Origin: a virus
Lineage: Duplodnaviria; Heunggongvirae; Uroviricota; Caudoviricetes
IMG/VR virus record: IMGVR_UViG_2541047932_000013
Location: 1 to 8,634 of that record
Length of the DNA: 8,634 nt
Direction: 5' to 3' (one strand)
The notes below the pieces were generated by a model. That model saw only the letters and a program-made list of their open reading frames with translations, ran no database searches and was not told the DNA's origin. Below, piece by piece: positions 1-8,028 of the stretch (its first letter is position 1; every line of letters begins with the position of its first letter). A program made the translations under genes and the position numbers.

Positions 1-131
1 TGTGGTACCGAAAGACTTGCTGCCCCCATCTCGCGCCCGAGCGCGCAAAAGAAAACCCGCGCATAGGCGGGCTCCAGAAGCAGCGGTTCATTGAATGCTG
101 CGGCAATAATGTGTGAAAGATTACGTCTCAC
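1..131 (-). CDS. C: Partial gpC-like head protease/scaffold protein; only the N-terminal ~43 codons are inside the window
   Basis: Minus-strand translation from GTG at 129-131 gives (M)RRNLSHIIAAAFNEPLLLEPAYARVFFCALGREMGAASLSVP, matching the recalled lambda gpC N-terminus (LRNLPHIASMAFNEPLMLEPAYARVFFCALAG). GGAG lies about 10 nt upstream. The start overlaps the portal stop by 11 nt and the ORF runs off the window edge. Confidence 0.6.
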   Translation of the reverse strand, partial: MRRNLSHIIAAAFNEPLLLEPAYARVFFCALGREMGAASLSVP

Positions 132-1713
132 GGGGTGTTGTCTCCTCTTCCGGCCTGCGACTCTCCGCTATCTGCTGCTGATACGCCTGCGCTATCCACA
201 CCGGACGTGAGAGTCCGGCTTTTTGCCGCTCAGCAGATTCCCTGACCTGCTGGCGGAAAATGTCCTGATAATCCTCGCCCATCAGCGCCAGCTCTTTCTC
301 ATACGTGCTCAGTCCGGCCTCAATGCGCATCACCGATTCCTGAACCTCCTTGAGCCCGTCAATGGCCATTCTTCCGGCACCAATCCACTCTGCCCGTGAC
401 CAGGCTGATCGCGCCTGATAAAAATCAAAACGCGCCCGTGGCGGACGGATAATCCCCCGAAGAAGTGCCTCTTCCAGCCAGCAGGAAAACATCTGCGTGG
501 CCAGCCGGGCCGCAATAAATTTTCGCCGCCCCATAAAATAGCGCCACGACTCATTGGCAGAGGCCCTGGCACTTGAATAACTGACCTTCGAGTAATCACG
601 GGACAACTGTTCGTAGGAAACGCCAAGACCGGCGGCGATATACCGCAGCAGCGCCTGTTCAAGCGCCGAAAATCCATTGTCTGAATCCTGCGCAGTCTGT
701 AGTTTCAGATCATCCCCGGGGAAAAGGTGCGGAATTTTGACTCCGCCCAGCGTCACGCTATTCGTGTCATACCAGCTGGAGAACTTCTCCAGAATATTAA
801 TAAGCGGATTATCCTTCTGCTCCTGTGGCGCGCCGGCGATATATTCAAAGGCCTTTTCGGTATCAAGTTCACTTTCAATCGTCGCTGCATACATGGCTTT
901 CACAATGGCCGACTGAAGCTGTGTTGCCTGCAGGGAATCCAGCATCTTCAGCCGTTCCATGACGCTGTAAAACTGATTAGCCCCACGGGTCTGCCCGTCC
1001 TCCACCGGCTCGAAAATATGCAGCATGGCCGGACGCCCGGTGGGAAGTTCACGCGGGATCCGTTCCCATCGTCCACTCCCGGAGAACGGAAAATCATCCT
1101 CACAGATATGGTACGCAACGGCACGGCCATATCGATCGACCTCCACCCCGGCCCGCAGAAAACGGTTCCCCATACCGTGTCCTGGCGTGTCCACCCGTTT
1201 CGGACTCACGGCTTTAAAACGCGTACGAAACAGTTGCGTACTCTCCGTATCCCAGACCGGCTGCACAAAGATTTCGCCGTTAAACGCATGAACGCCCACA
1301 CCTTCACGGATAAATTCCGTAAACGTGCGTCTCCCTTCCACGTCGATCTCACCAAACATCCCTTCTGCGTATTCTGACCAGGCCGCCTCCACCTCATCGA
1401 CAAAACTTTTTGCCGCGGTCTCCCGCATCCCCAGCCAGCGCCAGTTCGGACGGTAGCTAATCAGAAACATATGCCCGACAATGTGATCCTTATGCAGGGC
1501 CACCGCATTGGCCGCTATTCCGTTATTGCGCACCAGATCATCTGCACGGGCATTCCCCAGACGCAACGCGGGCAGCAGGGCCGCATCGGCACTCTGCGAG
1601 GGTGGCAACCACTCTGCCATTTGCCCGCCAAATCCTGCACCGCCACCGTTGTAGCTGAGGCTCTCCCGAAGCGGAACGCCGTTCACATCAATCAGGACAG
1701 GCGTTCGTTTCAT
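121..1713 (-). CDS. B: Portal protein (lambda gpB family)
   Basis: 530-aa ORF of lambda gpB-like size (~533 aa) in the conserved order A-W-B-C. Its ATG overlaps the gpW stop in an ATGA arrangement. Confidence 0.88.
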   Translation of the reverse strand: MKRTPVLIDVNGVPLRESLSYNGGGAGFGGQMAEWLPPSQSADAALLPALRLGNARADDLVRNNGIAANAVALHKDHIVGHMFLISYRPNWRWLGMRETAAKSFVDEVEAAWSEYAEGMFGEIDVEGRRTFTEFIREGVGVHAFNGEIFVQPVWDTESTQLFRTRFKAVSPKRVDTPGHGMGNRFLRAGVEVDRYGRAVAYHICEDDFPFSGSGRWERIPRELPTGRPAMLHIFEPVEDGQTRGANQFYSVMERLKMLDSLQATQLQSAIVKAMYAATIESELDTEKAFEYIAGAPQEQKDNPLINILEKFSSWYDTNSVTLGGVKIPHLFPGDDLKLQTAQDSDNGFSALEQALLRYIAAGLGVSYEQLSRDYSKVSYSSARASANESWRYFMGRRKFIAARLATQMFSCWLEEALLRGIIRPPRARFDFYQARSAWSRAEWIGAGRMAIDGLKEVQESVMRIEAGLSTYEKELALMGEDYQDIFRQQVRESAERQKAGLSRPVWIAQAYQQQIAESRRPEEETTPRET

Positions 1714-1916
1714 AACCTCACTCCCAGCGGACGACGGCGACGGCGGGTTGTCCCCAGTACCGACTCCGCATCATTGATCGCCCGGTTAAGCTCATCCAGA
1801 GAAGCCGCCGTATATTCAATTCTGCGACCATCTTTCTGGACAGACACCACCCGTTTACCGGTTAATAAATCAAGGCGCGCCTGACGCAGCGCCTGCAGTT
1901 CAGCGACTGTAACCAT
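1710..1916 (-). CDS. W: Head-tail joining / head completion protein (lambda gpW family)
   Basis: 68-aa ORF MVTVAELQALRQARLDLLTGKRVVSVQKDGRRIEYTAAS... closely resembles recalled lambda gpW (…[26 protein letters not shown]…). Same length and position between terminase large subunit and portal. Confidence 0.85.
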   Translation of the reverse strand: MVTVAELQALRQARLDLLTGKRVVSVQKDGRRIEYTAASLDELNRAINDAESVLGTTRRRRRPLGVRL

Positions 1917-3828
1917 TCACTCCTCCGGACAGCTTCGCTGCCAGTTCTTTAAGGGTTGGCCGGGTCGTCTCTTCTTCCCGGGATTTTGCCAGTACAGCCA
2001 GATCAAGCTGCCAGCGTTGCACGGACACACGTAATGCCGCGTAGGCATACACCAGGCAGTCCAGCGCTTCGTTACGCCGCTTTTTGTTATCCCACAGCAG
2101 ACGCATCTTTCCTTTTTCCCACTTCTCCACAAGCTCTTCCGCCACCAGTTGCTGCGCCTCTGTCTGCGAAAAAATCTCCGGATCATCAGGAAAACGGATG
2201 GCATACGACGTGGCTTCATCCGCAGGCGTGGGATCGGCTTTCATACGGGCATAGAGAATTTCTTTTGCGGTGTCCGTCCCCACTTCGCACAGATACACGC
2301 CCCGCTGATTGCGGGTTTTTGGCATGGTGATCACCGGCTTGCCATAAACAGATGCACCTTTTACCGGCAGCACCCGGAAAACACCGTGTTTTTTTGACCT
2401 CTGATAGACAATTTCGCCATCGATCCCCCCGGTGTCCCAGCAGACACGGGAAATGGTCATTTCGGTTCCGTCTGCATGGCGGTATTTTTTGTTGATCGCC
2501 ACATCCACACGTAACAGCGTCTCTTCCTCATCGGGACGCCCCATAATGATGATTTTATCCACCAGAAAGGCTTCCTCTCCCGGAGCCCATCCCCAGACAT
2601 ACATCTCAAAACGGTTTCGCTGCGAGTCAATGCCCGCCGTCAGATAAACCACCCGGGAAGGCACCGCAGCCGTGTAACGCACAACCTTATCCATCAGCAC
2701 CTGGTGATCGAGTTTTTCGCCCACGGCCTCTTCCCAGGTCTCGCCCAGCGTGGTGTTCACAAAGGTTTTCAGGCCGTTGGGATCTTTCAGTGCATCCAGC
2801 CAGTCATAGACAATCTGTACCCAGGTGGTGAACGGACTGTACGCCGTCCAGATATGGAATGTGATGGAGCGCGGCGGCGGAATTTCATTATCCGCGGCGC
2901 TGAAAAACGTCAGACCGTCGCGGGTCCACATGCCCGTGTTTTCGCAGATCCACCGCCCGTTGCTCTGGTCAAGCTCAGACTGATGGATCACGCAGCCATG
3001 ATGTTCACAGAGGTAGAAAACGCTTTCGGGGCTGTCCTTCTCCCATTTAAGGCCAAAAGGCGTGGACTCATCGCCAAATTTCAGATACTGCGCCTCCCCA
3101 CAGTGCGGGCAGGACACATAAAAACGCATGAAATGCGCCGACTCGTTGGCCGCTTTTTCGATCTGGCAGGAGCCTTTTATTTTAGGCGTCGAGCCGCGAA
3201 TGGATTTTGGCCATACCGAGCCCTCAATACGCTTATCCCCCAGCAGGGTTGGCGAGCCCTCTTTTTCGACATCCGGCTCGAACGAGGAAAGTTCGTCATA
3301 GCAGACCACGTCCACGGATTTTTCACGGTAGTTTTTTGCTGCCGCACCACCCAGGCACCAGAAGCCCACCCCCGATGAAAAGCGTTTCAGCGTGAGAGTA
3401 TTGTCACGATGTTTACGACCCAGCCACGGGGAAAGGTCTTTCAGGCATGGCACGTCCCGAATCGTCGCCTCCACGTGAGACTTCATAAAATCTTCAGCGG
3501 CAGAATCCGTGGGCTGAAAAAGCAGACTGTTTCGGGATTTATGCTCAATAAAATACCCGGCGACTCCCAGCAACATCTTTGTATAGCCAACACGGGCAGA
3601 TTTAATCAGATTAACAGTGCGGATCTGATCATTCCCCATACTGTTCATGATGGCGATCTGGAACGGCAGCGTTTTCCATTCGCCGTCACCGTATGAGGAT
3701 TCTTTAGGCAGATAATAATACTGGTCAGCCCATTCAACTGCCGTCATCGGTACAACCCTGACCAGAGGCTGCAGCGCAACCGAAACGGCGGCCACCATAT
3801 TATTCAGTTGTTGCTCTGATATATTCAT
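1900..3828 (-). CDS. A: Terminase large subunit (lambda gpA family)
   Basis: Strong similarity along the whole length to recalled lambda gpA (TAVEWADQYYYLPKES…, KRFSSGVGFWCLGGAAAKNYREKSVD, WTAYSPFTTWVQIV, RNEALDCLVYAYAALR). The six-frame ORF extends to 3885, but the homologous start is the internal ATG at 3826-3828 (MNISEQQ… versus lambda MNISNSQ…). Confidence 0.9.
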   Translation of the reverse strand: MNISEQQLNNMVAAVSVALQPLVRVVPMTAVEWADQYYYLPKESSYGDGEWKTLPFQIAIMNSMGNDQIRTVNLIKSARVGYTKMLLGVAGYFIEHKSRNSLLFQPTDSAAEDFMKSHVEATIRDVPCLKDLSPWLGRKHRDNTLTLKRFSSGVGFWCLGGAAAKNYREKSVDVVCYDELSSFEPDVEKEGSPTLLGDKRIEGSVWPKSIRGSTPKIKGSCQIEKAANESAHFMRFYVSCPHCGEAQYLKFGDESTPFGLKWEKDSPESVFYLCEHHGCVIHQSELDQSNGRWICENTGMWTRDGLTFFSAADNEIPPPRSITFHIWTAYSPFTTWVQIVYDWLDALKDPNGLKTFVNTTLGETWEEAVGEKLDHQVLMDKVVRYTAAVPSRVVYLTAGIDSQRNRFEMYVWGWAPGEEAFLVDKIIIMGRPDEEETLLRVDVAINKKYRHADGTEMTISRVCWDTGGIDGEIVYQRSKKHGVFRVLPVKGASVYGKPVITMPKTRNQRGVYLCEVGTDTAKEILYARMKADPTPADEATSYAIRFPDDPEIFSQTEAQQLVAEELVEKWEKGKMRLLWDNKKRRNEALDCLVYAYAALRVSVQRWQLDLAVLAKSREEETTRPTLKELAAKLSGGVNGYSR

Positions 3829-4309
3829 CGAGTAAATCCGGTAATTTATCCCCTGCCCGCGCACACTGATTTGCCCCCTTCGCAATAAGGGTTTTCAGAT
3901 GGTCAAGATGGCGCGGTGTTAAATCAGGAAACTGTCGCTGCATGGATAAAGGGATGGAATCAAGCGTACTGGATAACGCCATTGCCAGCTTACTGAGGGC
4001 AAAAATACAGAACCCGGTGTCAATAAGTTTTCCTTTTGACACCTCATTTTTTAACTGCTGTGTAACAGCCTGTTCTGCTGTCAGTTCCCATCTGGCAATA
4101 AGCAATTTCTCCTCATAGTCGTCTTCGCTATCGCCATCAGGCACATCGTTTTTACTTCTCCTCAGATACGATATGTAAAAATCGCGCCAGGCATCCAGAT
4201 CCAGTTGCCCTCGCTTATTCGATATCGGGGCACCCGGTAATTTCTGCAATCTGCGAAGCTGGCGATCGGTCAGACTTAAATGCCTGGCAACTTCAGTCTG
4301 CGTAGCCAC
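3800..4309 (-). CDS. nu1: Terminase small subunit, Nu1-like, with a divergent N-terminal DNA-binding domain
   Basis: C-terminal half (DTGFCIFALSKLAMALSSTLDSIPLSMQRQFPDLTPRHLDHLK…LPDLLDEYI) matches the recalled lambda Nu1 gpA-interaction region. The N-terminal ~90 aa (MATQTEVARHLSLTDRQLRRLQ…) is HTH-like but not lambda-like. GTG start with GAGGTGAGGA immediately upstream; the 3' end overlaps the A start. Confidence 0.8.
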   Translation of the reverse strand: MATQTEVARHLSLTDRQLRRLQKLPGAPISNKRGQLDLDAWRDFYISYLRRSKNDVPDGDSEDDYEEKLLIARWELTAEQAVTQQLKNEVSKGKLIDTGFCIFALSKLAMALSSTLDSIPLSMQRQFPDLTPRHLDHLKTLIAKGANQCARAGDKLPDLLDEYIRATTE

Positions 4310-4455: not shown

Positions 4456-4492
4456 GATCCCGGAAAATTTTCATAAATAGCGAAAACCCGCG

Positions 4493-4504
4493 AGGTCGCC
4501 GCCC
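4493..4504. other. cosN, the 12-nt cohesive-end sequence (reverse complement of GGGCGGCGACCT)
   Basis: Plus strand 4461-4504 is the exact reverse complement of the first 44 nt of the lambda left end as recalled (GGGCGGCGACCTCGCGGGTTTTCGCTATTTATGAAAATTTTCCG). The flanking 4505-4560 resembles the lambda right end (…CCGTAACC.GTCGGATC.CCGGAAAGGACC…). Confidence 0.85.
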
Positions 4505-4710
4505 CGTAACCGGTCGGATCGCCGGAAAGGACCCACGAAATGATAATGATTATCATCTATATAAGGTTTATCACAACATGTGTGTACGCCATCAAACCAC
4601 GAGAAATAATCAATTATGACGCAGGTATCGTATTAATTGATCTGCGTCAAATTAACGTAAAAGCAACTTCAGATAATACAAATCAGCAACACTGAATATG
4701 GGGAAACATT

Positions 4711-4896
4711 ATGTCATCAAAGAACAGAACCCGCAGAACAACAACCCGCAACATCCGATTTCCAAACCAGATGATTGAACAAATTAACATCGCTCTTGAT
4801 CTGAAAGGTTCAGGAAACTTTTCAGCGTGGGTTATTGAAGCCTGCAGAAGAAGGCTGTCAACAGAGAGTTCGGGTATGAATTACATAATTAAGTAA
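4711..4896 (+). CDS. Small basic protein, possibly a ribbon-helix-helix DNA-binding protein, of the kind found next to cos in lambdoid prophages (YlcI/DUF3950-like by recollection)
   Basis: 61-aa ORF MSSKNRTRRTTTRNIRFPNQMIEQINIALDLKGSGNFSAWVIEACRRRL…: basic N-terminus followed by a strand-helix-helix-like pattern. Transcribed opposite to the late operon. GGGGAAACATT lies upstream of the ATG. Confidence 0.55.
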   Translation: MSSKNRTRRTTTRNIRFPNQMIEQINIALDLKGSGNFSAWVIEACRRRLSTESSGMNYIIK

Positions 4897-5028
4897 CATG
4901 GTGTTCACAGAACACGCAGTTACCGGACACATCAGTTTTCCATTCGCTCCCCGGCAGTACAGGCTTCCCCTCTGACGGGATAGCCTGAAAAAATAACACA
5001 GAAAATTATTTGTTATAATTAATATAAC

Positions 5029-5169
5029 TTACTCAAAAAAAAGCGACGAGAAAATCAGCATCAACGAACAATAAGCGCCAATACGTGATAACAAATGGCA
5101 GCCATATTTATCTGCAGTATAAGCAATGGACAGGATAACCACACCAGAAACCGTCAGCATAAAATCCAT
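5029..5169 (-). CDS. Candidate 46-aa hydrophobic small protein (below the ORF-track length cutoff)
   Basis: Hand translation of the minus strand: MDFMLTVSGVVILSIAYTADKYGCHLLSRIGAYCSLMLIFSSLFFE, stop at 5029-5031. GGGGAAG lies 6 nt upstream of the ATG at 5167-5169. It sits in an AT-rich region where lambda carries bor. Confidence 0.3.
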   Translation of the reverse strand: MDFMLTVSGVVILSIAYTADKYGCHLLSRIGAYCSLMLIFSSLFFE

Positions 5170-5519
5170 TTGAACTTCCCCGGACAAAATCGACTCATCT
5201 AAAGATTTACAGCTCTTTTTATTATCAATATGTTAAAAGTAAAATAAACAGATGTTCAATAACACGAATACAAAAACGTGCTGAAATTCAATGAATCCAT
5301 TTCTGTGTCATCAATTAATAGTGATAAACATCCGGCTTCTTCCACCATCGCACCGGACAGGCGACTATGAGGGAACAACGCCGCGCTCCGTTAACGCGGT
5401 AAACCCCGGTGTGTATCGTTTTTGATTATCCCCGCACACTCGCGCAGAGGAGTCTCCCTGTCGGGCTGCGGTCTCTGTTAATGAGGGAATACAGCGACGA
5501 TACGGCGCATCAACAAAAC

Positions 5520-5987
5520 TTATTTCAGGCACTGAGTGCGGATATAGTCCTGTGCCCCTTCCAGTTGCTTGTGCATCGTCATCAGCCGCTCTCTGAGGGT
5601 GAAATAATCCCGTGTAACGGTGTCTGCCAGTTGGGGGCCGGTTGCATTATCCACGCCGGAGGTGGTGGGGGCTTCACGCACGGAGCCTGGACAGGTGGCG
5701 TTGATCCGCAGGCGCTTACGACCAGCGGCAACGTCAGCGCGAAGAGTTTCATTTTCAGCTCTCGCATCGGCTAATTCCTTCGTGTATCTGGCATCAAGCG
5801 CAGCGACATCTCGCTGGCGCTGCTGCATGTCAGTAATAGTGGCATTCGCCAGTTTCAGCTCACTGACTTTTTTATCGCGCTGCGCTTTGTAGGTGATGGC
5901 GTTATCGCGGTAATGATTCAGCCCCAGACTAAGCACACCACAGGCTACCAGCAGGACAATAATCACCACACACAGAACACGGTTCAT
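5520..5987 (-). CDS. Rz: Rz i-spanin (inner-membrane spanin subunit)
   Basis: Very close to recalled lambda Rz ([16 protein letters not shown]…[33 protein letters not shown]…[17 protein letters not shown]). The real start is most likely the internal ATG at 5985-5987 ([13 protein letters not shown]…, N-terminal TMD); the six-frame ORF's extension to 6071 is probably not translated. Confidence 0.9.
5582..5767 (-). CDS. Rz1: Rz1 o-spanin (outer-membrane lipoprotein spanin subunit), embedded in Rz in the +1 frame
   Basis: [61 protein letters not shown] matches recalled lambda Rz1 (…LPLVVVGC…[30 protein letters not shown]…). Lipobox VSAC and a proline-rich tract are present; the gene is fully nested in Rz. 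Confidence 0.88.
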
Positions 5988-6086
5988 ATCACCACCAACG
6001 GATTGCCCAGACCAGAACAGCAATGGCCACAATACGAATGGCAAATGCCATTGCCCGAATAAGTTCAGCACTCATCTTTTTAAAGT

Positions 6087-6200
6087 TCACGATTTCAGCG
6101 CAATGACCAGTTTTGCCAGCCCATACAGCATCGGAGACACAGCAATACCAACAGCCACCCACTTAATAGCAAAAGCCAGCGCTCTGCTGATGTCATCAGT
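6087..6200. repeat. Direct repeat, copy 1 (~114 bp, ~94% identical to 6352-6465)
   Basis: Hand alignment: 7 mismatches in 114 nt against the copy 265 bp downstream. The flanks differ on both sides. Confidence 0.9.
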
Positions 6201-6209
6201 CACTGTCAC
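6087..6209 (-). CDS. Candidate 40-aa membrane peptide, a paralog of the 6352..6534 ORF; no ATG, putative GTG start coupled to the upstream stop
   Basis: The minus frame encodes (M)TVTDDISRALAFAIKWVAVGIAVSPMLYGLAKLVIALKS. It differs from the downstream copy by one I/V substitution despite 7 nucleotide differences. GTG at 6207-6209 overlaps the TGA of the preceding ORF (GTGA). Confidence 0.3.
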   Translation of the reverse strand: MTVTDDISRALAFAIKWVAVGIAVSPMLYGLAKLVIALKS

Positions 6210-6337
6210 CCCAGCAGCCCCGACGAAGACAACATCATCCAGGCCATGGAAAGAAAAAGAGCAACCAGCATTAGTGAAAATGAAATGCCGACAATTACAC
6301 AGAGGATCTTCGCCAGCGTTATGAGTTTGTCTGACAT
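6206..6337 (-). CDS. Candidate 43-aa hydrophobic membrane peptide
   Basis: MSDKLITLAKILCVIVGISFSLMLVALFLSMAWMMLSSSGLLG, with a strong SD (GGGAGGA) 6 nt upstream of the ATG at 6335-6337. It begins 14 nt after the stop of the upstream small ORF. The six-frame ORF 6206..6427 has an unlikely N-terminal extension. Confidence 0.4.
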   Translation of the reverse strand: MSDKLITLAKILCVIVGISFSLMLVALFLSMAWMMLSSSGLLG

Positions 6338-6351
6338 GCTTAATCCTCCCT

Positions 6352-6465
6352 TCACGATTTCAACGCAATGACCAGTTTTGCCAGCCCATACAGCATCGGG
6401 GACACAGCAACACCGACCGCCACCCACTTAATGGCAAAAGCCAGTGCTCTGCTGATGTCATCAGT
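6352..6465. repeat. Direct repeat, copy 2
   Basis: See copy 1. Confidence 0.9.
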
Positions 6466-6534
6466 TACAGGCGCTTTCAGTTCAAGGCCATTTTTCATAG
6501 TCAACCTCAACAGAATTCGTTTATACTTCGCCAT
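6352..6534 (-). CDS. Candidate small membrane peptide (60 aa from the ATG at 6532-6534, or 48 aa from the ATG at 6496-6498)
   Basis: …MKNGLELKAPVTDDISRALAFAIKWVAVGVAVSPMLYGLAKLVIALKS. GAGG lies 6 nt upstream of the 6498 start and GGGAG 3 nt upstream of the 6534 start. The C-terminal 38 codons are duplicated at 6087-6200. Confidence 0.4.
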   Translation of the reverse strand: MAKYKRILLRLTMKNGLELKAPVTDDISRALAFAIKWVAVGVAVSPMLYGLAKLVIALKS

Positions 6535-6567
6535 GTTCTCCCTTGCCTTACTCAAGGTCAGAAACAC

Positions 6568-6600
6568 AAAACCCCGCTTGGTGCCAATAAACGGGGTTTT
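6568..6600. terminator. Bidirectional intrinsic-terminator-like hairpin between the endolysin and the small-peptide ORFs
   Basis: AAAACCCCG (6568-6576), a 15-nt loop, then CGGGGTTTT (6592-6600): a 9-bp GC-rich stem. T-rich sequence follows on the plus strand (TTACTTTTATT) and on the minus strand (TTTTGTGTTTCTG). Confidence 0.5.
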
Positions 6601-6690: not shown

Positions 6691-7224
6691 TTATCTGTCG
6701 ATACCCCAGCACGCCAGCGCGCTCTCCTGGTCACGACGGGATACCTGACCGTAGCAGTTGTTTGAACGAATACGGCAGTCTCTGCCACCGTCCTTAATCC
6801 ACCAGCGAATCGCCTCACATGCTCCCCTGCGATCACCAGCATTAATTCGTCTGTAAAACGTCGACGGGAAACACTTACCGGGACCAATGTTGTACGGACA
6901 GAATGACGCGATCCCCGCTTTCTGGGGTTCGGTCAATGGCACTTTGATGTTTTTCTCCACCCATGCCAGCGCCTTATCACGTTCGATGGCGTTAACCTGG
7001 TCGCATTTCTCCTTCGACAACTTCATGCCCGGGACGACAGGTTTACCATCCACCAGAATGGCACCGCGACAGATGGTCCAGATACCCGCGCCATCACGGT
7101 ATGCCGTGGTGTGGTTACCTTCCTTTTCATCCAGAAACTGGTCGAGAATGTCAGGCGCAGGCGCACCAGCGGCAATCAGCGCCAGAACGGCAGCCGACAG
7201 GCCGTATTTGATTTTGGTGTTCAT
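6691..7224 (-). CDS. R: Endolysin, T4-lysozyme-type (GH24), with an N-terminal signal-anchor-release-like hydrophobic segment
   Basis: 177-aa ORF. N-terminal KYGLSAAVLALIAAGAPA hydrophobic stretch, followed by a lysozyme catalytic E…D…T spacing (EKEGNHTTAYRDGAGIWT). It is partnered with an S21-type pinholin. Confidence 0.85.
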   Translation of the reverse strand: MNTKIKYGLSAAVLALIAAGAPAPDILDQFLDEKEGNHTTAYRDGAGIWTICRGAILVDGKPVVPGMKLSKEKCDQVNAIERDKALAWVEKNIKVPLTEPQKAGIASFCPYNIGPGKCFPSTFYRRINAGDRRGACEAIRWWIKDGGRDCRIRSNNCYGQVSRRDQESALACWGIDR

Positions 7225-7260: not shown

Positions 7261-7818
7261 CTAAATACGCACTTTAAGATAAGTCAGCCCCGGATGAAGC
7301 CAGTAAGCCGGCACTTTTTTAAAGGGTGGAGTATTAAAATCACGAAGAAGAGCCTCCCGCACAATTGCATCCTTATCAGCACCACTGGCCAGCGCTTCAA
7401 TCTCAGCGGCTACCTGAAGATATCCCATGCAACGGCCAACGCGCTTCATCAGCCCCTGCTTTTTATTGTTCTTCAGGTAATCAATGGCAAATTCAATGAG
7501 CTCCTCACTGTGCTGGTGCAATGGAGGTGTTACTTTCCCATTTTCTGAGATGGTTATTTTCCCGGCATCACCGGATACAACAAAGGATGGCCGGTTACAC
7601 TCCCATTCCAGGTTACTGAAATTATCATTATGAATACTGAAACACTCTGAGAGATTTCTGCTCATCACTTTCCGACAATAATCGTCAAACGCAGCAAACT
7701 GCTCATCGCGGCGTTTTTTTTCATCTTCAGAAGGCATCAGCGTCGACAGTTTTTTATTCAGTTCAGCAATTTCATTTTCCAGACGACTGAAGCGCTGATT
7801 CATTTCTTCATGGTTCAT
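7261..7818 (-). CDS. Hypothetical 185-aa soluble protein with an N-terminal coiled-coil-like segment, inserted between holin and endolysin
   Basis: ATG at 7816-7818 lies directly after the holin stop (7822-7824), with GGGGAG upstream. No TM segment or signal peptide is visible; the N-terminus reads EEMNQRFSRLENEIAELNKKLSTL. The sequence is visibly more AT-rich than the neighbouring lysis genes. No family recognised. Confidence 0.6.
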   Translation of the reverse strand: MNHEEMNQRFSRLENEIAELNKKLSTLMPSEDEKKRRDEQFAAFDDYCRKVMSRNLSECFSIHNDNFSNLEWECNRPSFVVSGDAGKITISENGKVTPPLHQHSEELIEFAIDYLKNNKKQGLMKRVGRCMGYLQVAAEIEALASGADKDAIVREALLRDFNTPPFKKVPAYWLHPGLTYLKVRI

Positions 7819-7821
7819 CAC

Positions 7822-8028
7822 CTAATCTCCCCGGGCAGCCTTGCGACGGTCCTCTCTGATTTTGAAATACAGGTTAGTCAGATACGTCAGCAGGCCAAAC
7901 AGCAGACTCCCCAGCACACCTATCGCCACCCACTGGGACGGAGAGACTTTGTCCAGCAGCTGCAGTAACCAGTATCCCGTCCCCACCGCTGACGTGGTGT
8001 ATGACACACCCGTTGTGATTTTTTCCAT
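7822..8028 (-). CDS. S: Class II holin (pinholin), phage 21 S21-like
   Basis: 68 aa: [68 protein letters not shown]. It is nearly colinear with the S21 pinholin as recalled (two TMDs, …[14 protein letters not shown]…[21 protein letters not shown]). Confidence 0.88.

What the first reader, a model, noticed from the sequence alone, without database searches (positions are those of the whole stretch)
4900..5520. AT-rich accessory region in the bor position, with a 46-aa hydrophobic ORF and about 350 bp of non-coding sequence
Between Rz and the cos-proximal small ORF there is no bor homolog. Instead there is a strongly AT-rich stretch with a short minus-strand ORF (MDFMLTVSGVVILSIAYTADKYGCHLLSRIGAYCSLMLIFSSLFFE, GGGGAAG SD) and a long AT-rich leader (5170-5520) without ORFs. 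The arrangement of a small hydrophobic peptide plus an extended untranslated region resembles type I toxin loci or small-membrane-protein morons, and the AT-richness suggests foreign origin or H-NS silencing.
Basis: inference. Interest (0 to 1): 0.5.

Follow-up and report, generated by a model that had tools for sequence, protein, structure and literature searches.

The report
Small membrane-protein moron in lambdoid prophage
The AT-rich stretch is a 485-bp piece of optional prophage cargo carrying a probable 46-residue membrane protein of unknown function. The GC-rich 190 bp beside it is a separate non-coding element, shared with phage lambda itself, that looks like a folded RNA.

Summary
The 46-aa ORF (5029-5169, minus strand), its GGGGAAG Shine-Dalgarno sequence and the absence of bor are all real. 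The "350-bp AT-rich leader" is really two unrelated pieces.

**Module B (4846-5330, 36% GC)** is an optional cargo module. It is absent from lambda, K-12 and Stx1 phages, and present whole in 734 of 5426 complete E. coli genomes. It holds the ORF, which RefSeq already annotates as a hypothetical protein, and a 35-nt promoter-like block.
- A rare 73%-identical allele keeps the block identical.
- That allele keeps the ORF open and more conserved than its flanks (82% versus 66%, p=7e-4; dN/dS 0.31).
- The protein has no homologue outside E. coli prophages.
- It is predicted to form a two-helix membrane hairpin.

My best reading is a moron encoding a small inner-membrane protein. Nothing beyond size and hydrophobicity supports a type I toxin.

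**Module C (5331-5516, 57% GC)** is conserved in about 400 lambdoid phage records, including lambda. It is non-coding and shows compensatory base-pair changes, so it is probably a structured RNA in the late transcript. It has no Rfam match.

The true bor slot, between module C and Rz, is empty. Module B occupies the next slot, which is hypervariable.

The parts
4846..5330 (.). Module B: an AT-rich (36% GC) optional cargo module. It carries orf46, its upstream promoter-like tract and the last 17 codons of the YnfO-family gene.
   Evidence: Homology to lambda stops at 4845 and homology to Stx1a phage resumes at 5331. It is present whole in 734 of 5426 complete E. coli genomes: 257 at >=99% identity, 476 at 95-99% (listed rows about 97.5%) and 1 at 76.7% by blastn. 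Within-clade diversity is uniform and low across the module.
5029..5169 (-). orf46: a 46-aa hydrophobic ORF, MDFMLTVSGVVILSIAYTADKYGCHLLSRIGAYCSLMLIFSSLFFE. It is predicted to form a two-helix membrane hairpin.
   Evidence: ORF list. PGAP annotates it as WP_000347013.1, hypothetical protein, in O104:H4 and EDL933. The SHP24 allele encodes 45 aa at 71% identity with the same start and no internal indel. dN/dS is 0.31. The ORF is 82% identical against 66% for the flanks, p=7e-4. AF2 predicts helices 2-22 and 24-45 at pLDDT 76. GRAVY is 1.11. There is no Pfam, NCBIfam, PHROG or PADLOC hit.
5175..5181 (-). Shine-Dalgarno-like GGGGAAG, 5 nt upstream of the ATG.
   Evidence: Read directly from the sequence. 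GGGGAA is retained at the same spacing in SHP24.
5215..5249 (-). A 35-nt block identical between alleles that are otherwise 73% identical. It is the probable core promoter of orf46: -10 GATAAT at 5226-5221 with weak -35 candidates, or alternatively TTGAAC (5259-5254)-N18-TAACAT (5235-5230).
   Evidence: Alignment A1. It is the longest identical run; 12 of 20000 shuffles reach that length. A plus-strand consensus match, TTTACA-17-TATGTT at 5206-5234, overlaps it, so the strand assignment is inferred.
4897..5028 (.). Convergent intergenic spacer between the stop codons of orf46 and ynfO. It holds two stable hairpins (4961-4984 and 4892-4922) but no canonical intrinsic terminator.
   Evidence: Folding z-scores are -2.7 and -2.9. 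The hairpins are absent from the SHP24 allele (z +0.46). Only a weak terminator-like hit was found at 4915-4901.
5331..5516 (-). Module C: a GC-normal, non-coding element conserved across lambdoid phages and probably a structured RNA in the late transcript. Helices: H1 5503-5497/5419-5413; H2 5491-5481/5437-5427; H5 5399-5395/5385-5381; H6 5357-5352/5336-5331.
   Evidence: 398 phage records match at 60-99% identity, including lambda 46868-46981, 933W, phage 21 and ES18. It is not coding: amino-acid identity is below DNA identity, ES18 has a frameshift, there is no 3-nt periodicity, and stops occur in all frames. 96.5% of cells are paired. 11 pairs have changes on both sides, against 3.3+-1.3 in shuffles (0 of 500) and 2-5 in slid controls. 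Alifold energy is -31.8 for the sense strand and -14.2 for the antisense strand. No Rfam hit.
5510..5522 (.). The empty bor slot. Module C abuts the Rz stop codon (TAA at 5522-5520).
   Evidence: In lambda, 933W and phage 21, bor plus about 115 nt lies between module C and Rz. In the EDL933 prophage a 74-aa ORF sits there instead.

Best explanation
Positions 4846-5330 are a moron-type cargo module. It sits in the hypervariable slot between a conserved late-operon element (module C) and the cos-proximal ynfO/cos segment of a lambdoid prophage.

The module carries one small gene, orf46.

**Shown**
- The module is optional, compositionally foreign and recently spread.
- The ORF and a 35-nt upstream block are under constraint.

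**Inferred**
- The block is a sigma-70 promoter (-10 GATAAT). It would transcribe orf46 in the lysogen with a 5' UTR of about 45-55 nt.
- Q-modified RNA polymerase also reads through the gene late in infection, because it lies on the late strand.
- Translation starts at the ATG, 5 nt after GGGGAAG.
- The 46-residue product inserts in the inner membrane as a helical hairpin. The K21/H25/R29 turn would face the cytoplasm and both termini the periplasm.

**Guessed**
- Like other moron-encoded small membrane proteins such as HK97 gp15, it may act by binding a host or phage membrane component. The most plausible role is to protect the lysogen, for example by excluding superinfecting phage at DNA entry.

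The neighbouring 5331-5516 is not its leader. It is an independent conserved RNA-like element.
For: **Presence/absence between homologous flanks**
- Lambda aligns to 4505-4845 and to 5394-5509 and 5542-5684, but not between.
- Stx1a phages align to 4702-4845 and 5331-5700.
- 734 of 5426 genomes carry the whole module.
- At least 14 different cargo types follow module C in 110 IMG/VR elements. Some join module C directly to the cos region.

**Composition**
- 36% GC against 51% for the window.

**Gene reality**
- The SHP24 allele keeps the SD, ATG, length and hydrophobic pattern.
- dN/dS is 0.31, and 0.27 for a third allele against SHP24.
- The ORF shows 18% mismatched columns against 34% in the flanks, Fisher p=7e-4. 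The ORF has only a terminal poly-T gap, while the flanking spacers have 12 gap columns.
- It is intact (44-46 aa) in about 86 of 95 IMG/VR copies.
- PGAP calls it as a gene.

**Promoter**
- A 35-nt identical run, p about 6e-4.

**Fold**
- Two helices, pLDDT 76. The hydropathy profile shows two hydrophobic segments around a polar, net-basic turn.
Against: - No expression data could be obtained. The supplements of EHEC ribosome-profiling and TSS papers did not contain the locus or were truncated.
- Only one deep comparison exists. The dN/dS test alone is weak (permutation p about 0.13). Substitutions are not concentrated at third codon positions (8/6/10).
- No canonical terminator closes the unit, and the hairpins are not conserved.
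- The -35 element is poor. A plus-strand promoter match overlaps the conserved block.
- The family is confined to E. coli prophages and has no homologues. Function is therefore pure inference.
- Frameshifted and poly-T slippage variants exist.
Confidence: 0.5

Rival explanations
1. The ORF is a fortuitous or proto-gene frame in an AT-rich spacer. On this reading the constrained features, the 35-nt block and parts of the ORF sequence, act as DNA or RNA signals. They could be a promoter firing on the plus strand into module C and antisense to Rz, or an H-NS nucleation site, rather than specifying a functional protein.
For: - An open 46-codon frame in 36% GC DNA is not rare.
- The dN/dS permutation p is only about 0.13, and there is no third-position bias.
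- Within the main clade, diversity is the same in the ORF and its flanks.
- A plus-strand TTTACA-17-TATGTT promoter match overlaps the block.
- The protein is an orphan.
- The poly-T tract gives variable C-termini.
Against: - The ORF is significantly better conserved than its flanks and has no internal indel.
- The SD, ATG and length are retained at 73% DNA identity, and the replacements are conservative.
- No conserved plus-strand ORF or terminator lies downstream of the putative plus-strand promoter. The plus-strand 44-aa ORF loses its ATG in SHP24.
Confidence: 0.25
2. The protein is real but works in the lytic cycle rather than the lysogen. It would be a late-operon accessory membrane protein expressed by read-through from pR'. 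It might modulate lysis timing or membrane energisation, or block secondary infection during growth.
For: - It lies on the late strand, about 350 nt downstream of Rz/Rz1, with no strong terminator in between.
- It is a two-helix membrane hairpin, as class II holins and pinholins are.
Against: - It has no charged C-terminal tail and no holin or antiholin family hit.
- It is separated from the lysis genes by the conserved module C, in a slot that elsewhere holds lysogen-expressed morons such as ybcV/ybcW, cspI and gnsB.
- It has its own conserved promoter-like block.
Confidence: 0.15
3. The locus is a type I toxin-antitoxin system. The hydrophobic peptide would be a membrane-depolarising toxin whose translation is held down by a cis- or divergently encoded antisense RNA.
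For: - The peptide is small and very hydrophobic.
- Overlapping divergent promoter-like sites at 5206-5249 could give 5'-complementary transcripts.
Against: - No sRNA gene signature (promoter plus terminator) was found on the opposite strand, and no Rfam family matches.
- The inferred 5' UTR is short. It and the whole mRNA fold no better than shuffled sequence (z +0.37 and -1.2).
- The '350-nt leader' is an unrelated conserved element.
- There are two hydrophobic helices rather than the usual single one.
- No hit to Hok, Ldr, TisB, Ibs or similar families.
- The locus is single-copy, not tandem.
Confidence: 0.07

Closest known systems
Morons of lambdoid phages (Hendrix/Juhala concept; for example lambda bor and lom, and HK97 gp15)
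   Same: It is an extra gene inserted between conserved modules and present in only some relatives. Its base composition deviates from its surroundings. It has a promoter-like element of its own and a small envelope or membrane product.
   Different: No clear terminator closes the unit. It lies on the late strand, whereas bor is antisense to late transcription. It has no sequence similarity to Bor, Lom or any PHROG family, and its function is unknown.
HK97 gp15, a moron-encoded small inner-membrane superinfection-exclusion protein (from my own knowledge of Cumby et al. 2012)
   Same: Both are very small inner-membrane proteins encoded by a moron of a lambdoid prophage. gp15 is a plausible functional analogue.
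   Different: There is no detectable homology (no PHROG hit). It sits at a different genome position, after the lysis cassette rather than among the tail genes. Exclusion activity has not been tested.
Type I toxins of E. coli (Hok, Ldr, TisB, IbsC, ShoB, DinQ, ZorO)
   Same: Both are hydrophobic peptides of fewer than 60 residues encoded in accessory DNA.
   Different: No antisense RNA, no long structured leader and no family match were found. It has two helices rather than one.
Cargo of the same slot in other prophages: lambda p78/p79, DLP12 ybcV-ybcW, Qin ydfO-gnsB-ynfN-ynfR-ynfQ-cspI, and phage 21 CPT_21_72-75
   Same: The position between the lysis region and the ylcI/ynfO-cos segment is the same. 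The cargo is small genes, often convergent with the YlcI/YnfO gene. In K-12, ybcW-ylcI is reported as a convergent excludon (PMC12288877).
   Different: The sequences are unrelated.

Membership tests
Moron (phage accessory transcription unit) | Present in some phages and absent from close relatives, between homologous flanks | tested here: met
Moron (phage accessory transcription unit) | Base composition differs from neighbouring phage genes | tested here: met
   36% GC against 51% for the window and 53-55% for Rz, terL and the endolysin.
Moron (phage accessory transcription unit) | Own promoter | tested here: inconclusive
   A 35-nt invariant block with -10 GATAAT. The -35 is weak, the consensus scan reports only a plus-strand match, and there are no TSS data.
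Moron (phage accessory transcription unit) | Own terminator | tested here: not met
   No canonical intrinsic terminator was found. The hairpins at 4961-4984 and 4892-4922 lack U-tracts and are not conserved.
Moron (phage accessory transcription unit) | Expressed from the repressed prophage | not testable with these tools
   Needs RNA-seq, Ribo-seq or a reporter fusion in a lysogen.
Type I toxin-antitoxin | Small hydrophobic membrane peptide | tested here: met
   46 aa, GRAVY 1.11.
Type I toxin-antitoxin | Antisense or divergent antitoxin sRNA gene | tested here: not met
   No sRNA-like promoter-plus-terminator unit was found, and no Rfam hit.
Type I toxin-antitoxin | Long structured 5' UTR that controls translation | tested here: not met
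   Folds are no better than shuffled sequence. The supposed leader at 5331-5520 is an independent conserved element.
Type I toxin-antitoxin | Toxicity on overexpression | not testable with these tools
   Requires an experiment.
Bor/Iss lipoprotein | Sequence homology to lambda Bor | tested here: not met
   tblastn best E 3.5.
Class II holin / pinholin | Two TMDs plus a charged C-terminal tail, a family match, and a position upstream of the endolysin | tested here: not met
   Two helices are predicted. There is no charged tail and no Pfam or PHROG hit. The gene lies downstream of Rz.
Known RNA families (for module C, 5331-5516) | Match to an Rfam covariance model | tested here: not met
   No relevant hit at E<=10.

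The most novel reading that the evidence does not exclude
The GC-rich half of the supposed leader (5331-5516) may be a previously undescribed structured RNA of about 180 nt. It would be embedded in the late transcript of most lambdoid phages, lambda itself included (lambda 46868-46981). It marks the boundary between the lysis cassette and a hypervariable cargo slot. Possible roles are an mRNA processing or stability element, or a protein-binding element. Beside it, orf46 may be a lysogen-expressed two-helix microprotein that excludes superinfecting phage.
Probability: 0.35. Interest if true: 0.6.

Novelty: new member of a known kind. Interest (0 to 1): 0.3.

Why it matters
The ORF sits in prophages of major pathogens, including O157:H7 EDL933 and O104:H4 outbreak strains, and in 13.5% of complete E. 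coli genomes. Even so, it remains an orphan annotated as hypothetical. If it is a lysogen-expressed membrane protein, it joins the small set of phage morons that alter host phenotype or phage immunity.

The map is the more general result: Rz, then the bor slot, then module C, then a hypervariable slot, then ynfO/cos. This clarifies where lambdoid phages load cargo. It also flags a conserved, apparently structured non-coding element, present even in phage lambda, that is absent from Rfam.

Tried and rejected
**Homology searches for orf46, all negative**
- Pfam, NCBIfam, PHROG and PADLOC gave no hits.
- The 5.8-billion protein word search found only E. coli near-identical proteins.
- The exhaustive HMMER search of 1.84 billion representatives gave only spurious low-complexity hits.
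- GTDB representative genomes gave nothing, by peptide patterns or by the promoter block.

**Literature, nothing found**
- The accession and peptide string had no hits.
- The Sakai small-gene supplements lack the peptide.
- The stored copies of the EDL933 TSS supplements are truncated before the locus.
- The Pas sRNA preprint describes elements elsewhere in the prophage.
- The Chi-hotspot paper was not relevant, and the window has one Chi site, which is within chance.

**Readings rejected**
- orf55 and its PHROG 6954 'Rz-like spanin' label were rejected as coding.
- Phage 21 CPT_21_72, which occupies the analogous position, is not homologous to orf46.
- Within-clade polymorphism was too uniform to detect selection.
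- One alignment row, the window row in A4, was mis-trimmed by 10 nt and so lacks the H1 5' arm. This only removes that row from seven pair counts.

Full report
**Context.** The window is the right-end/left-end junction of a lambda-type prophage, read in reverse.
- Portal, W, terminase large subunit and Nu1 lie on the minus strand at 121-4309.
- cos lies at about 4480-4505.
- A 61-aa YlcI/YnfO-family (DUF3950) ORF lies on the plus strand at 4711-4896.
- Rz and Rz1 are at 5520-5990 (Rz) and 5582-5767 (Rz1), the endolysin at 6691-7224 and the holin at 7822-8028.
- The stretch is 99.7% identical to a prophage of E. coli O104:H4 2011C-3493.

**Check of the observation.** The quoted ORF, its GGGGAAG motif and the lack of a bor homologue are correct. 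The composition claim holds only for 4846-5330, which is 36% GC, with 5170-5330 at 29%. Positions 5331-5520 are 57% GC.

**Mosaic anatomy.** Local BLAST against lambda, DLP12, Qin, Stx1a phage, 933W, phage 21 and ES18 splits the region into three modules.
- *Module A (4505-4845)* matches the last 334 bp of lambda at 87% identity. It includes most of the YnfO-like gene. Lambda encodes an unannotated homologue of that gene, 90% identical over 52 aa.
- *Module B (4846-5330)* has no counterpart in lambda, K-12 or the Stx1a phages.
- *Module C (5331-5516)* is conserved in about 400 phage records.

In lambda, 933W and phage 21, module C lies on the far side of bor from Rz. In ES18 it lies beyond rha. 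In this window it abuts the Rz stop codon.

So the bor slot is empty here, and module B occupies a second slot between module C and ynfO/cos. Other phages fill that second slot differently:
- lambda has p78 and p79;
- DLP12 has ybcV and ybcW;
- Qin has six small genes;
- phage 21 has four.

Some of them run straight into the cos-proximal sequence.

**Module B and orf46.** The module is present whole in 734 of 5426 complete E. coli genomes.
- The main clade is nearly uniform: 257 records at >=99% identity and 476 at 95-99% (the listed rows are about 97.5%, and include EDL933).
- One record, strain SHP24, matches at 76.7% by blastn. A reciprocal search found the same allele in one further genome. 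The identity is 72.8% over all aligned columns of module B.
- It occurs in only two deposited phage records and in no GTDB representative genome.
- PGAP annotates the ORF as hypothetical protein WP_000347013.1.

Within the main clade, polymorphism is evenly low at 5-8% of sites across the ORF and its flanks. Module C shows 57%. Module B therefore looks like a recent, horizontally spread insert.

The informative comparison is window against SHP24.

| Segment | Identity |
|---|---|
| Upstream tract | 72% |
| 35-nt block 5215-5249 | identical (12 of 20000 shuffles give so long a run) |
| 5' UTR | 67% |
| ORF | 82%, with only a terminal poly-T length change |
| 3' spacer | 62%, with 8 gap columns |

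- The ORF is significantly better conserved than its non-coding flanks (Fisher p=7e-4).
- The SD, ATG and length are kept, at 45 against 46 aa.
- The 13 replacements are mostly conservative (V/I, S/A, M/I, F/L), and residues 26-34 and 38-45 are invariant.
- dN/dS is 0.31, and 0.27 for a third allele against SHP24. With 24 differences this is suggestive only: the permutation p is about 0.13 and there is no third-position excess.

The protein has no detectable relatives or family. AlphaFold2 without an alignment predicts two helices, 2-22 and 24-45, at pLDDT 76. Hydropathy shows two hydrophobic segments around a polar, net-basic turn, ADKYGCHLLSR. By the positive-inside rule this suggests a cytoplasmic turn and periplasmic termini. 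That topology is an inference.

**Transcription signals.**
- The invariant block contains a good -10 (GATAAT, 5226-5221) with only weak -35 candidates.
- An alternative is TTGAAC-N18-TAACAT.
- A plus-strand consensus match, TTTACA-17-TATGTT, overlaps the block.

I assign the block to the orf46 strand for two reasons. It spans almost exactly -1 to -35 of the GATAAT promoter, and nothing conserved lies downstream on the other strand. This assignment is an inference.

No canonical terminator follows the ORF. Two stable hairpins in the convergent spacer are not conserved. Because the gene lies on the late strand, it must also be transcribed by Q-modified polymerase during lytic growth, which follows from established lambda biology.

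**Type I toxin reading.** Apart from size and hydrophobicity, every defining feature I could test was absent.
- There is no antisense sRNA unit and no Rfam hit.
- The mRNA and 5' region fold no better than shuffled sequence.
- There is no toxin family hit.
- The 'extended untranslated region' that prompted the idea is largely module C.

**Module C.** It is not coding.
- The 55-aa frame, which hits PHROG 6954 labelled 'Rz-like spanin', shows 53-57% amino-acid identity at 77-79% DNA identity, and is frameshifted in ES18.
- Variability has no 3-nt periodicity, and every frame has stops in several members.

On the late-transcript strand the family supports a multi-helix fold (helix coordinates are in the parts list).
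- In 28 diverse members, 96.5% of cells pair.
- 11 of 35 pairs change on both sides, against 3.3+-1.3 in shuffles (0 of 500) and 2-5 with slid partners.
- Compensatory examples are CCGGU/ACCGG to CCUGU/ACAGG and to CUCGAU/AUCGAG in H6, CCGCG/CGCGG to CUGUG/CGCAG and to CUCAU/AUGGG in H5, and C-G to G-C in H2 of lambda.
- Frequent G-U pairs and alifold energies (-31.8 sense against -14.2 antisense) favour the late strand.

One caveat applies: I derived the structure from these same sequences. The 3' end of H6 coincides with the point where cargo sequences diverge. Function is unknown. A processing or stability element, or a protein-binding element at the boundary between lysis and packaging genes, is speculation.

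**Verdict.** The finding is a real but fairly ordinary accessory locus. It is a moron-like module with a probable small membrane-protein gene of unknown function, already annotated as hypothetical in RefSeq. The most interesting by-product is the conserved, apparently structured, unannotated element at 5331-5516.

Noticed in passing
window 5331-5516 (minus strand); lambda 46868-46981; L010 1500-1680; L011 1228-1390; L012 90-256: A non-coding element of about 180 nt is conserved across lambdoid phages, with compensatory base-pair changes on the late-transcript strand. It has no Rfam match and always lies between the lysis cassette (plus bor or rha morons) and the cargo or packaging region.
   Followed up: partly
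window 5346-5348 (ATG) to 5256, minus strand: A 30-aa ORF (MVEEAGCLSLLIDDTEMDSLNFSTFLYSCY) starts inside the loop of helix H6 of module C and runs into module B. The MVEE(T/A)G start recurs in many phages with different cargo and is annotated as CPT_21_72 in phage 21. It is absent from lambda and ES18, and is only 57% identical in SHP24.
   Followed up: partly
lambda 48148-48303, complement (L003 3649-3804): Phage lambda encodes an unannotated YlcI/YnfO-family (DUF3950, ribbon-helix-helix-like) ORF next to cos. It is 90% identical over 52 aa to the window's 4711-4896 gene.
   Followed up: partly
window 5031-5042 (poly-T at the 3' end of orf46): A run of 8-9 T just before the stop codon varies in length among copies. 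This gives C-termini of 45, 46 or 49-51 aa and is a slippage-prone tract.
   Followed up: partly
window 6087-6209, 6206-6340 and 6352-6567, minus strand: A tandem duplication lies between the endolysin and Rz. Two small ORFs share a nearly identical 38-aa hydrophobic C-terminus (phrog_1115). Between them is a 44-aa hydrophobic ORF (phrog_4906). All are of unknown function.
   Followed up: no
window 7261-7821, minus strand: A 186-aa ORF of unknown function (phrog_1085) is inserted between the holin and the endolysin. Related prophages carry YdfR-family genes at this position.
   Followed up: no
L008 3178-3402 (EDL933 prophage), L001 3316-3540, L009 2185-2409: In some relatives the bor slot between Rz and module C holds a 74-aa ORF (MKKLLVTVKPFQGT...) on the late strand instead of bor.
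   Followed up: no
window 6570-6600: A GC-rich hairpin with flanking A and T runs (AAAACCCCGC...CGGGGTTTTT) lies between the endolysin and the small ORFs. It looks like a bidirectional intrinsic terminator inside the late operon, and surfaced as a weak rimP-leader hit.
   Followed up: no
L219-L221: An intermediate orf46 allele (89% amino-acid identity) sits next to a different packaging module without a ynfO gene. So module B moves independently of ynfO.
   Followed up: partly
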